Source of the DNA: Candidatus Wolfebacteria bacterium
GTDB taxonomy: Bacteria; Patescibacteriota; Minisyncoccia; UBA6257; UBA9933
Length of the DNA stretch: 64,000 bases
Reading direction: 5' to 3'
Assembly (NCBI GenBank): GCA_024654025.1
Contig: JANLIR010000007.1
Coordinates: forward strand, 421 to 64,420
In this document: one piece after another, positions 50,462-52,150 of the stretch
Layout of the letters: each line of letters starts with the position of its first letter
How positions within the stretch are numbered: position 1 is the stretch's first letter
Position numbers and translations under genes: made by a program
The notes under the pieces: generated by a model
The model's database searches: none
What the model was told of the DNA's origin: nothing
The model's input: the letters and a program-made list of their open reading frames with translations, nothing else

Positions 50462-50502
50462 AGATAAATCAAAATCCCGCCAGTCCAGAGACTGGCGGGA
50501 TT
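50462..50502 (-). terminator. strong hairpin terminator immediately downstream of the 16S rRNA gene
   Basis: 13-bp stem AATCCCGCCAGTC/GACTGGCGGGATT followed (minus strand) by TTTTGATTTAT. Confidence 0.6.
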
Positions 50503-50619
50503 GTTGGAAATTTTTTGGTTGCCCCAATACTCTCGCTTTAGGCGAGAGAGTCGAGACATAAGGCTCCTCGACTAACACCTGTGTCCGCAAAGCGGACATC
50601 GATCAATTTTCGAATTTAA

Positions 50620-52150
50620 TTATTCCACGCACAGCTTCCGCTACGCGTGCCTTGTTACGACTTCACCCCTGTCACTGAGCTTACCTTGAGCCGCCAAAGG
50701 CGACCTTCAGGTACTCCCAGCTCCCTTGGTGTGACGGGCGGTGAGTACAGGACCCGAGAACGTATTCACCGTGACATAGCTGATTCACGATTACTAGCGA
50801 TTCCGGCTTCATGAGGGCGAGTTGCAGCCCTCAATCCGAACTGGGGCCGAATTTGGTGGGATTAGCTCCGCCTCTCGGCTTGGCAACCCATTGTTTCGGC
50901 CATTGTAGCATGTGTGTGGCCCAGGGCATCAAAGGGCCACGCTGATCTGACGTCATCCCCGCCTTCCTCCGTGAAATACACGGCAGTCCTGCCTGACACT
51001 TGTAACAGACAGCAGGGGTTGCGCTCGTTACCCCACTTAAGGGAACAGCTCACGCCACGAGCTGACGACGACCGTGCAGCACCTGTCCTGATGTCTTTTA
51101 AGGGAGGGTTCCGGTTTCCCGGAATTTTCATCAGAATTTCAAGCCCTGGTAAGGTTCCTCGCTTGTCGTCGAATTAAACCACATGCTCCACCGCTTGTGC
51201 GGGTCCCCGTCTATTCCTTTGAGTTTTAGTCTTGCGACCGTACTTCCCAGGCGGTCTACTTAACGCGTTAGCTACGCCACTCCGAGGGTCGATACTCGAA
51301 ACAGCTAGTAGACATCGTTTAGGGCGTGGACTACAAGGGTATCTAATCCTTTTTGCTCCCCACGCTTTCGCGCCTCAAGGTCAGGAGTGCCTTAGTAGAA
51401 TGCCTTCGCCTTTGGTGTTCCGCACGATATCAACGGATTTCACCCCTACACCGTGCGTTCCATCTACCTCTAACATCCTCTAGTTAGGTCGTATCTGTTG
51501 CGGTTCCTTTGTTGAGCAAAGGTATTTTACAACAGACGCACCAAACCCCCTACGCGCCCTTTACGCCCAATAAATCCGGATAACGCTTGAGCCCCTCGTA
51601 TTACCGCGGCTGCTGGCACGAGGTTAGCAAGCCCTTATTCAGCTGGTACTGTCAACTCCGACCGAGGTCGGAGCTTCCTCCCAGCTAAAAGCAGTTTACA
51701 ATCCGAAGACCTTCTTCCTGCATGCGGCGTCGCTCCATCAGGCTTTCGCCCATTGTGGAATATTCTCGACTGCTGCCACCCGTAGGTGTACGAGCCGTGT
51801 CTCAGTCTCGTCGTTGGGGGACTGCCTCTCAGCACCCCTACCCGTTATAGCCTTGGTGAGCCGTTACCTCACCAACAAGCTGATAGGACCTAGGTCCCTC
51901 CCAAAGCGTCTTGCGACTTTACACTTCGAGCTTGCGCTCTCAGTGACTATCGGGAATTAGCCAACCTTTCGGCTAGTTATGCCCGACTTTGGGGTAGGTA
52001 ACCAGGGTGTTACTAACTCGTTTGCCACTAACCATTTTTATTCCTTGATTTGATGTAATCTCACCTCGTTCAAAAAATAGTCCGTTTGACTTGCATGCCT
52101 TATCCACGCCGCCAGCGTTCATCCTGAGCCAGGATCAAACTCTCAATTAA
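50620..52150 (-). rRNA. 16S ribosomal RNA
   Basis: universal primer sites on revcomp: AGAGTTTGATCCTGGCTCAG (52124-52143), CTGCTGCCACCCGTAGG, GTATTACCGCGGCTGCTGGCAC, GGACTACAAGGGTATCTAATCC, CCGTCTATTCCTTTGAGTTT, GACGGGCGGTGAGTAC, AAGTCGTAACAAGG; 3' boundary uncertain. Confidence 0.9.

What the first reader, a model, noticed from the sequence alone, without database searches (positions are those of the whole stretch)
50462..52150. 16S rRNA is unlinked from 23S/5S and its 3' tail lacks the canonical CCUCC anti-Shine-Dalgarno
1. Downstream of the 16S gene (minus strand) there is a 13-bp-stem terminator and then a response-regulator gene. There is no ITS tRNA and no 23S, so the rRNA operon is split.
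2. After the conserved h45 hairpin (GGCACGCGUAGC-GGAA-GCUGUGCGUGG) the sequence continues GAAUAAUUAAAUUCG… where E. coli has GAUCACCUCCUUA. No CCTCC occurs anywhere before the terminator.
3. This matches the near-absence of SD motifs upstream of host genes in this window, and contrasts with the SD-rich island at 3.8–5.9 kb.
Possible explanations are a lineage with SD-independent initiation and a degenerate anti-SD, an altered SD:anti-SD pairing (an AU-rich UUAAU-type SD), or my misplacing the mature 3' end.
Basis: partly seen in the sequence, partly recalled or inferred. Interest (0 to 1): 0.7.

Follow-up and report, generated by a model that had tools for sequence, protein, structure and literature searches.

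The report
Parcubacterial 16S lacking anti-Shine-Dalgarno tail
This is the stand-alone 16S rRNA gene of an ultra-small "Candidate Phyla Radiation" bacterium; it really has lost the mRNA-docking sequence at its 3' end, but that loss and the split rRNA operon are already published for this group, so the finding is real and mostly ordinary.

Summary
All three observations hold. Rfam places a full-length bacterial 16S at 50613-52150 (-). Helix 45 is intact, and the next 11 nt read AUAAUUAAAUU where the consensus has UCACCUCCUUU. No CCUCC follows, and there is no 23S or 5S in the 64 kb. The gene is its own transcription unit: promoter, ~26-bp leader/trailer stem, 13-bp terminator.

The contig is an NCBI "Candidatus Wolfebacteria" MAG (Parcubacteria). 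Anti-SD absence in about half of Parcubacteria (Tsurumaki 2022) and unlinked rRNA genes in Patescibacteria (Brewer 2019) are published.

What I add:
- **Replacement tail.** It is not random decay. Across 108 distinct relatives exactly 11 nt (consensus UCAAUUAAACU) are conserved, then conservation collapses, so the 3' end is not misplaced.
- **No AU-rich SD.** The tail's complement is not enriched upstream of genes.
- **SD use at background.** 12% of window genes against 63% for E. coli in the same pipeline.
- **Leaderless signature.** -10 promoter boxes pile up 7-9 nt before ATGs (56/336 genes), the pattern expected for leaderless mRNAs.
- **Unexplained.** A few genes keep strong GGAGG-type motifs that are conserved across orthologues.

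Verdict: a new member of a known kind, of modest interest.

The parts
52383..52410 (-). Promoter-like site of the 16S transcription unit (TTGACA, 16 nt, TAAAAT)
   Evidence: 11 of 12 consensus matches. The same GGGGTTGACAAT...TAAAAT is present in the close relative L208.
52284..52309 (-). Leader strand of the pre-16S processing stem (GUUGGAACUUUUUUGGUUGUCCCAAU)
   Evidence: Pairs with 50503-50528. RNAduplex gives -39.1 kcal/mol over ~26 bp. Conserved in L174 and L208.
50613..52150 (-). 16S rRNA gene, full length
   Evidence: Rfam RF00177, 1432 bits, model positions 1-1533, not truncated.
50626..50649 (-). Helix 45 (10-bp stem, GGAA loop)
   Evidence: Structural alignment. The loop-closing pair is C-G, as in the relatives found.
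50613..50623 (-). 11-nt 3' tail AUAAUUAAAUU, in place of UCACCUCCUUU (no anti-SD)
   Evidence: The tail is conserved in relatives: UCAAUUAAACU in 44/120 loci, with variants (A/U)(C/U)AAUUAAA(C/U)U.
50503..50528 (-). Trailer strand of the processing stem (AUUGGGGCAACCAAAAAAUUUCCAAC)
50473..50502 (-). Intrinsic terminator (13-bp stem, loop UCUG, U-rich tail)
   Evidence: L174 and L208 have a different terminator hairpin at the same place.
50058..50444 (-). Response-regulator receiver gene, the next gene after the terminator (not part of an rRNA operon)
   Evidence: Pfam PF00072, E = 6.7e-22.
3824..5853 (+). Contrast element: five small genes, each with a strong SD-like motif (DUF2103, a 225-aa ORFan, a 78-aa CxxC protein, a 109-aa protein, a 68-aa weak wHTH)
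   Evidence: Syntenic and variable in the related contig L242.

Best explanation
This is the single-gene 16S rRNA transcription unit of a Parcubacteria (Wolfebacteria-like, class Paceibacteria/Minisyncoccia) bacterium.

Shown:
- The gene has its own promoter, a ~26-bp leader/trailer processing stem and its own terminator. It is not followed by 23S or 5S.
- Its 3' tail has the normal length but reads AUAAUUAAAUU instead of UCACCUCCUUU, so it cannot form a Shine-Dalgarno helix.
- The AU-rich tail is shared and conserved across a large clade of relatives.
- SD motifs sit at background frequency upstream of ordinary genes.

Inferred:
- Ribosomes of this clade start translation without SD pairing. 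Promoter-proximal genes are often leaderless (a -10 box 7-9 nt before the ATG). The remaining genes would rely on A/U-rich leaders (shown); that these are unstructured, and that internal operon genes are translationally coupled, is assumed and was not tested.
- SD use was probably already low in the CPR ancestor, which relaxed selection on CCUCC. The tail was then remodelled and is now held constant for another reason. Candidates are 30S assembly or 3'-end processing, or docking on platform proteins. Which of these applies is not known.
For: Anatomy.

Lineage: an island protein is 100% identical to an NCBI 'Candidatus Wolfebacteria' MAG protein on a 64,957-bp contig. The nearest 16S among species genomes are Jorgensenbacteria and Minisyncoccia.

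Clade-wide loss: all 34 genome loci whose h45 starts GGCACG lack CCTCC. Magasanik-, Uhr-, Falkow-, Morani- and Yanofskybacteria keep UCACCUCCUUU.

Tail conservation: 120 metagenome loci with the identical h45 show a conserved 11-nt tail with a sharp boundary. An NJ tree places partial forms (ACAUCUCCUUU, UUUUCUCCUAG, UCAUCACAUUU) basal to a monophyletic AAUUAAA-tail clade that contains the window.

SD usage, one pipeline:
- E. coli 63% (80% with dG <= -4.4 kcal/mol)
- window 12% (16%)
- pooled aSD-less loci 13%, against 11% in the control region
- CPR loci that still have CCUCC 9%, against 11%

Leaderless signature:
- -10-like hexamers ending at -9..-7: 56/336 pooled, 6/49 in the window, 0/46 in E. 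coli; background is ~3 per position.
- Those boxes carry a TG extension in 46% (21% for boxes at other positions) and a >=4/6 match to the -35 hexamer in 34% (19%).

Unlinked 16S: 18/18 aSD-less and 18/18 canonical CPR loci lack a 23S downstream.

Literature: the anti-SD motif was detected in only 48% of Parcubacteria (PMC9297842). Unlinked rRNA genes are reported in Patescibacteria (bioRxiv 10.1101/705046).
Against: - No RNA data, so the mature 3' end and the transcription starts are inferred from conservation and motif positions only.
- A 64-kb window cannot exclude a second rRNA operon with a normal tail elsewhere in the genome.
- The window's own leaderless count is small (6/49).
- A minority of genes keep strong SD-like motifs at canonical spacing. 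In two orthologue sets these motifs are conserved while the flanks diverge. In the pooled data they are about 2-fold enriched at -10..-5. A strictly SD-blind ribosome does not predict this.
- The pooled gene sets come from short loci next to rRNA genes and use a crude first-ATG gene caller.
Confidence: 0.8

Rival explanations
1. Altered SD:anti-SD pairing. The AU-rich tail (AAUAAUUAAAUU) base-pairs with a complementary AU-rich motif (AAUUUAAUUAUU-like) upstream of start codons, so the SD mechanism is retained with a new sequence.
For: The tail is conserved at exactly the canonical length. Upstream regions are A/U-rich, and a few window genes have 8-9-nt matches (15232, 49026).
Against: - The real tail is no more complementary to the upstream regions than composition-matched permuted tails. 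In the window, 43% (longest match) and 53% (duplex energy) of permuted tails did at least as well, with a mean duplex of -1.2 kcal/mol. In 336 pooled genes from AAUUAAA-tail loci the fraction was 22-25% for 5-, 6- and 7-mers.
- Sense (AATTAA) and antisense (TTAATT) hexamers are about equally enriched near starts (30 and 23 occurrences) and show no positional peak.
Confidence: 0.05
2. The 3' end is mis-called. The true mature 3' end with CCUCC lies further downstream, after an insertion or intron, or the tail shown is spacer.
For: CPR 16S genes often carry insertions. L114, a relative, has a group I intron and a 3.1-kb 16S.
Against: - Gap-free alignment of the tail to model positions 1521-1533.
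- No CCTCC before, or for ~470 nt beyond, the terminator.
- The processing stem and terminator follow within 140 nt.
- Conservation ends at tail position 11-12 in 108 distinct relatives.
Confidence: 0.02
3. Heterogeneous rRNA. This aSD-less gene is one of two or more 16S copies, and another copy with a canonical tail serves the SD-led genes.
For: SD-like motifs are conserved upstream of some genes. Only 64 kb of the genome is visible.
Against: - The aSD-less tail is shared by an entire deep clade, so it is not a drifting spare copy.
- The gene scores as an intact full-length 16S.
- CPR genomes generally carry one rRNA copy (established knowledge, not tested here).
- No locus fetched here carried two 16S genes.
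Confidence: 0.05
4. Neutral decay in a reduced genome. The tail is functionless junk left after SD use was lost, as in insect endosymbionts.
For: Anti-SD loss is recurrent in tiny genomes and goes with ribosome simplification (PMC7782861). Intermediate, eroded tails exist in related lineages.
Against: The AAUUAAA tail carries 1.0-1.8 bits per position across lineages whose 16S differ by up to ~25%, while the adjacent trailer carries ~0.1 bit. That is purifying selection, not drift.
Confidence: 0.08

Closest known systems
Anti-SD-less 16S rRNA of a Parcubacteria subgroup (Tsurumaki et al. 2022, RNA 28:1041; PMC9297842)
   Same: Same superphylum and the same trait. CCUCCU was detected at the 16S 3' end in only 48% of Parcubacteria. 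The window's lineage and its relatives (Jorgensen-, Kaiser-, Taylor-, Nomurabacteria, Paceibacteria) fall in the lacking group.
   Different: In the passages of that paper I searched it scores motif presence or absence only. Those passages do not describe the conserved 11-nt replacement tail, the intermediates, SD usage of the genes or leaderless signals. Its reported overlap with uL1 loss cannot be checked in this window.
Anti-SD loss in bacteria with tiny genomes (Nikolaeva et al. 2020/21, PMC7782861; Lim 2012 and Amin 2018 as cited there)
   Same: Recurrent loss of CCUCC in reduced, host-dependent bacteria, associated with simplified ribosomes.
   Different: Here the loss is ancient and clade-wide, and a new conserved sequence took its place.
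Unlinked rRNA genes (Brewer et al., bioRxiv 10.1101/705046)
   Same: 16S and 23S are more than 1.5 kb apart. Patescibacteria are named there as a clade with exclusively unlinked genes. All 36 CPR loci I checked lack a 23S after the 16S.
   Different: Nothing material. I add that this 16S has its own promoter, processing stem and terminator, and that unlinking is independent of anti-SD status.
SD-independent initiation in Bacteroidetes/Flavobacteria
   Same: Few SD motifs and A-rich start regions.
   Different: Bacteroidetes keep an intact CCUCC that is sequestered by ribosomal proteins. Here the sequence itself is gone.
Leaderless-mRNA-rich bacteria such as Actinobacteria and Deinococcus (Zheng et al. 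2011, PMC3160421; Cortes et al. 2013, PMC3898074; titles and abstracts seen)
   Same: A -10 promoter signal at a fixed short distance upstream of start codons.
   Different: Those organisms retain a canonical anti-SD and use SD for leadered genes. Here the leaderless signal is only inferred in silico.
Mitochondrial small-subunit rRNA
   Same: Lacks the anti-SD while keeping h45 (noted in PMC10582724).
   Different: An organellar system with dedicated mRNA-recruitment factors. No homology of mechanism is implied.

Membership tests
Bacterial SSU rRNA (Rfam RF00177) | Full-length match to the covariance model above the gathering score | tested here: met
   1432 bits against a gathering score of 50, model positions 1-1533, not truncated.
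Canonical anti-SD-bearing 16S | CCUCC at positions 1535-1539 in the single-stranded tail after h45 | tested here: not met
   AUUAA occupies those columns. No CCTCC in 50000-50700 on the minus strand.
Anti-SD-less Parcubacteria subgroup (Tsurumaki 2022) | Parcubacteria affiliation | tested here: met
   NCBI names the contig's proteins Candidatus Wolfebacteria. The nearest 16S are Jorgensenbacteria and Minisyncoccia. The NJ tree agrees.
Anti-SD-less Parcubacteria subgroup (Tsurumaki 2022) | No CCUCCU motif at the 16S 3' end | tested here: met
Anti-SD-less Parcubacteria subgroup (Tsurumaki 2022) | Co-occurring absence of ribosomal protein uL1 | not testable with these tools
   Pfam found no ribosomal-protein gene among the 48 window proteins scanned (four large ORFs at 57099-63727 and two small ones were not scanned).
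Unlinked rRNA genes (Brewer et al.) | More than 1500 bp between 16S and 23S, or no 23S adjacent | tested here: met
   No LSU or 5S hit in the 64 kb: 50.6 kb downstream and 11.8 kb upstream. A terminator lies 111 nt after the 16S.
Pre-16S leader/trailer processing stem (RNase III-type) | Long complementarity between 5' leader and 3' trailer enclosing the 16S | tested here: met
   52284-52309 pairs with 50503-50528, -39.1 kcal/mol, conserved in L174 and L208. Cleavage itself cannot be tested.
Intrinsic terminator | G+C-rich hairpin followed by a U tract | tested here: met
   13-bp stem with 8 G-C pairs, tail UUGAUUUAU; z-score -4.7. The U tract is interrupted.
Leaderless-mRNA usage | -10 promoter element ending ~7 nt upstream of the start codon | tested here: met
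   56/336 pooled, 6/49 window, 0/46 E. coli. TG extension and -35 matches are enriched. In silico only.
Leaderless-mRNA usage | Mapped transcription start at the A of the AUG | not testable with these tools
   No transcriptome data.
Bacteroidetes-type SD-independent initiation | Intact CCUCC retained but occluded | tested here: not met
   CCUCC is absent.
Alternative SD:anti-SD system | Enrichment of tail-complementary motifs at a fixed distance upstream of starts | tested here: not met
   No better than permuted tails. No positional peak.

The most novel reading that the evidence does not exclude
The AU-rich 11-mer (UCAAUUAAACU; AUAAUUAAAUU here) is a functional replacement of the anti-SD tail with a new, unknown partner. 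In addition, the minority of genes that keep conserved GGAGG-type motifs in these aSD-less genomes are recognised by something other than the 16S tail: another rRNA or protein element, or a specialised ribosome population. That would be a second, SD-like but anti-SD-independent initiation signal in a major bacterial radiation.
Probability: 0.12. Interest if true: 0.65.

Novelty: new member of a known kind. Interest (0 to 1): 0.3.

Why it matters
The SD:anti-SD helix is the textbook bacterial start signal. A deep and very abundant clade of environmental bacteria lacks one partner of that helix outright. It is therefore a natural experiment on how bacterial ribosomes find start codons without it.

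The loss itself is published, so this window mostly confirms it. The increments are:
- the tail was replaced by a conserved sequence of identical length;
- there is a leaderless promoter signature;
- SD-like motifs are conserved in front of a few genes.

These increments make concrete questions testable. A member of this class has been cultured (Minisyncoccus archaeiphilus, PMC12281837, listed). Practically, gene finders and RBS models that assume SD, and pipelines that trim 16S ends, will misbehave on these genomes.

Tried and rejected
1. Alternative AU-rich SD. Rejected by permuted-tail controls in the window and in 336 pooled genes, and by the positional histograms.

2. 5'/3'-end helix as the reason for tail conservation. 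The window's tail AAUUAAAU is a perfect complement of the leader AUUUAAUU (52152-52145). However, this holds only in the window, L174 and L208 (dG -4 to -5). It does not hold in the UCAAUUAAACU majority.

3. An internal, relocated anti-SD. The CCCUCCCUU at about 51107 (h33/34 region) is not conserved in relatives.

4. Covariation between tail positions and the 3' 950 nt of the 16S. Only clade-splitting (phylogenetic) signals appeared.

5. First positive control for SD counting, using high-GC CCUCC loci. It failed because first-ATG gene calls are poor there. I replaced it with an E. coli segment.

6. The SD island as phage or plasmid DNA. There are no meaningful PHROG hits. The 225-aa protein is an ORFan, matching only itself among 5.8 billion proteins.

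7. The SD-led gene 29557-29988 as a foreign insertion. Rejected: it is the conserved first gene of the pilus operon in relatives.

8. Literature searches for a prior description of the replacement tail or of leaderless use in CPR found none in the searchable library. That is not proof of absence.

Full report
**Checking the observation.**
- Rfam finds one rRNA gene in the window: a full-length bacterial 16S at 50613..52150 on the minus strand (1432 bits, model 1-1533). It also finds five tRNAs, and no 23S or 5S.
- I re-aligned the 3' end on its own. Helix 45 is intact (10-bp stem, GGAA loop; 50649..50626). The following GGAAUAAUUAAAUU then aligns gap-free with the consensus GGAUcACCUCCUUu.
- CCTCC does not occur on that strand between 50700 and 50000.
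- The 13-bp terminator (50502..50473) is confirmed by the terminator scan and by folding (z-score -4.7). The downstream response-regulator gene (50058-50444) is confirmed by Pfam.

All parts of the observation are therefore real.

**Anatomy of the locus.**
- A near-consensus promoter lies at 52410..52383 (TTGACA, 16 nt, TAAAAT; 11/12 matches).
- A leader segment (52309..52284) pairs with a trailer segment (50528..50503). The stem is ~26 bp at -39.1 kcal/mol and encloses the 16S.
- The terminator follows the trailer strand directly.
- Two independent metagenome contigs with 98.7% identical 16S (L174, L208) have the same promoter, stem and tail. They have a different terminator hairpin at the same place.

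The 16S is therefore a self-contained, monocistronic transcription unit. It is not the broken end of an operon and not an assembly artefact.

**Whose gene it is.**
- Window proteins are 100% identical to proteins of an NCBI MAG named Candidatus Wolfebacteria bacterium, on a 64,957-bp contig.
- Gene content is typical of CPR bacteria: type IV pilus genes, UvrABC, PheST, MreB.
- I scanned one genome per species with an h45-loop pattern that does not constrain the tail. It returned 120 loci.
- All 34 loci whose h45 begins GGCACG lack CCTCC. These are Jorgensen-, Kaiser-, Taylor- and Nomurabacteria, Paceibacteria and Minisyncoccia.
- Magasanik-, Uhr-, Falkow-, Morani- and Yanofskybacteria, and the non-CPR phyla, have UCACCUCCUUU.

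**What replaced the anti-SD.**
- A metagenome scan with the window's exact h45 gave another 120 loci.
- Their tails are strikingly uniform. UCAAUUAAACU occurs in 44, and most others are (A/U)(C/U)AAUUAAA(C/U)U.
- Over 108 distinct sequences the information content is 1.0-1.8 bits at tail positions 1-11, 0.5-0.6 at position 12, and ~0.1-0.3 from position 13 onwards.
- The conserved block has exactly the length of the canonical tail. This argues that the mature 3' end is where it always is, and that the new sequence is under selection.
- Intermediates with the same h45 exist: UCACCUCCUUU, UCACCUCAUUU, UCAUCUCCUUU, UCAUAUCCUUU, UCACUACUUUU, UUUUCUCCUAG.
- In a rough NJ tree, partial forms branch basal to a monophyletic AAUUAAA-tail clade that includes the window (no bootstrap support was computed).

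**Does the new tail act as a new anti-SD?** No evidence.
- In the window, the real tail pairs with the -25..-1 regions no better than 300 permuted tails of equal composition. 43% and 53% of permuted tails did at least as well on the two measures, and the mean duplex is only -1.2 kcal/mol.
- In 336 upstream regions pooled from AAUUAAA-tail loci the result is the same: 22-25% of permuted tails did at least as well.
- There is no positional peak, and the sense and antisense hexamers are about equally common.

**How are genes started?**
- With one simple pipeline, an E. coli segment shows SD 4-mers at -20..-4 in 63% of genes (control region 4%).
- The window shows 12% (control 6%). The pooled aSD-less loci show 13% (control 11%).
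- CPR loci that still have CCUCC show 9% (control 11%). Low SD use therefore appears to predate the loss, which would explain relaxed selection on CCUCC. This is an inference from a small sample of 102 genes.
- A clear positive signal is a pile-up of -10-like hexamers ending 7-9 nt before the ATG: 56/336 genes, against ~3 per position elsewhere. The count is 6/49 in the window and 0/46 in E. coli.
- Those boxes are enriched for the TG extension (46% against 21%) and for -35 matches (34% against 19%).
- This is the classical in-silico signature of leaderless mRNAs. Window examples are 2845 and 62039 (TGTTATAAT, then 6-7 nt, then ATG), and also 40171, 39364 and 28185.
- The other genes have A/U-rich, G-poor start regions.

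**Unlinked operon.** None of 18 aSD-less loci and none of 18 canonical-tail CPR loci has a 23S after the 16S. One locus (L092) has the order 23S-5S-16S. Unlinking is therefore CPR-wide and independent of the tail.

**What is already known.**
- Tsurumaki et al. 2022 report that the anti-SD motif is detected in only 48% of Parcubacteria, and that the lineages lacking it overlap the uL1-lacking lineages.
- Nikolaeva et al. describe recurrent anti-SD loss in tiny genomes.
- Brewer et al. list Patescibacteria among clades with exclusively unlinked rRNA genes.
- Most CPR lack Era, the assembly GTPase that reads GAUCACCUCC.

The finding is therefore a correct rediscovery. I found no description of the conserved replacement tail, or of the leaderless signature in CPR, in the searchable library.

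**An unresolved wrinkle.**
- The eight window genes with the strongest predicted pairing to ACCUCCUUU (dG <= -8 kcal/mol) are the five island genes (3824-5853) plus 18967-19407, 29557-29988 and 34700-35098. No annotated housekeeping gene reaches that value.
- These genes are not simply foreign. The island is syntenic, though variable, in a related contig, and its SD motifs are kept despite 72% column identity.
- DUF2103 homologues in Campbell- and Liptonbacteria keep AAGGAG or AAAGGA while their neighbours have no such motif.
- 29557-29988 is the conserved first gene of the pilus operon. C(C/T)GGAGG(A/T)(C/T)AAA-ATG is kept in four of five relatives while the rest of the leader diverges.
- In the pooled data, SD-like 5-mers ending at -10..-5 number 66, against ~29 expected.
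- I could not show that those relatives themselves lack CCUCC. I also could not show that the window's genome has a single 16S.
- This wrinkle is the basis of the novel-case reading. It is also the main evidence against a strictly SD-blind ribosome.

**Verdict.** The other two are rejected. Both headline traits are published for this lineage, so this is a new member of a known kind and of modest interest. The conserved tail and the persistent SD-like motifs are worth a note.

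Noticed in passing
window 3824-5853 (+); L242 4001-6741: Five consecutive small genes each carry a strong SD-like motif (AAAGGAG or AAAGGGG) 6-9 nt before the start, in a genome whose 16S has no anti-SD. The genes are DUF2103, a 225-aa ORFan, a 78-aa CxxC protein, a 109-aa protein and a 68-aa weak wHTH. 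The island is syntenic but variable in gene content in a related contig, where the SD motifs are maintained.
   Followed up: partly
window 29557-29988 (-); L248-L251 3001-3447: A small conserved gene of unknown function heads the type IV pilus operon, divergent from uvrB. Its upstream C(C/T)GGAGG(A/T)(C/T)AAA-ATG is conserved in four of five relatives while the rest of the leader diverges.
   Followed up: partly
window 18967-19407 (-) and 34700-35098 (-): Two further short ORFs with no Pfam or PHROG hit have very strong SD-like motifs (AAGGGGGGAG, GAGAGGAG). Each lies opposite in orientation to its flanking genes.
   Followed up: no
window 52410-52429 and 52528-52547: A perfect 20-nt inverted repeat (ACCCCGCACCTTTAAAAGAT) with 98 nt between the arms lies just upstream of the 16S promoter. 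One arm abuts the -35 TTGACA and the other abuts a TTGACC. This may be a divergent-promoter or operator arrangement.
   Followed up: no
window 52145-52152 and 50613-50620: The leader sequence AUUUAAUU, which runs into the 16S 5' end, is a perfect complement of the tail AAUUAAAU. This is seen only in the window and its two closest relatives (L174, L208), not in the wider clade.
   Followed up: yes
window 51172-51180: The universal 16S segment GGUUUAAUU (E. coli ~953-961, 5' flank of h31) is the complement of the clade's consensus tail AAUUAAAC(U). The C/U variation at tail position 10 keeps pairing with G. This is probably coincidence (rough chance 5-10%), and it is not maintained in AAUUCAA-tail lineages.
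   Followed up: partly
window ~52037-52070: A 32-nt insertion relative to the Rfam model lies in the first hairpin region (V1) of the 16S.
   Followed up: no
L114 6074-6283; L092 3071-7944: Among relatives, a Jorgensenbacteria 16S carries a group I intron (the gene spans 3.1 kb). One canonical-tail Patescibacteria genome has the unusual gene order 23S-5S-16S.
   Followed up: no
loci L001, L015, L031, L035, L037, L060, L069, L088, L092, L113 and others (102 genes): CPR lineages that still have a canonical CCUCC tail also show SD motifs only at background frequency (9% against 11% in the control region), and they show a leaderless-type -10 peak (16/102). SD use seems to be low across CPR, not only where the anti-SD is lost.
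   Followed up: partly
window 27120-29402 (-) and 53988-56913 (+): There are two separate T2SSE/T2SSF (PilB/PilC-like) gene pairs with several pilin-like genes (N_methyl motif) nearby, which is typical CPR type IV pilus content.
   Followed up: no
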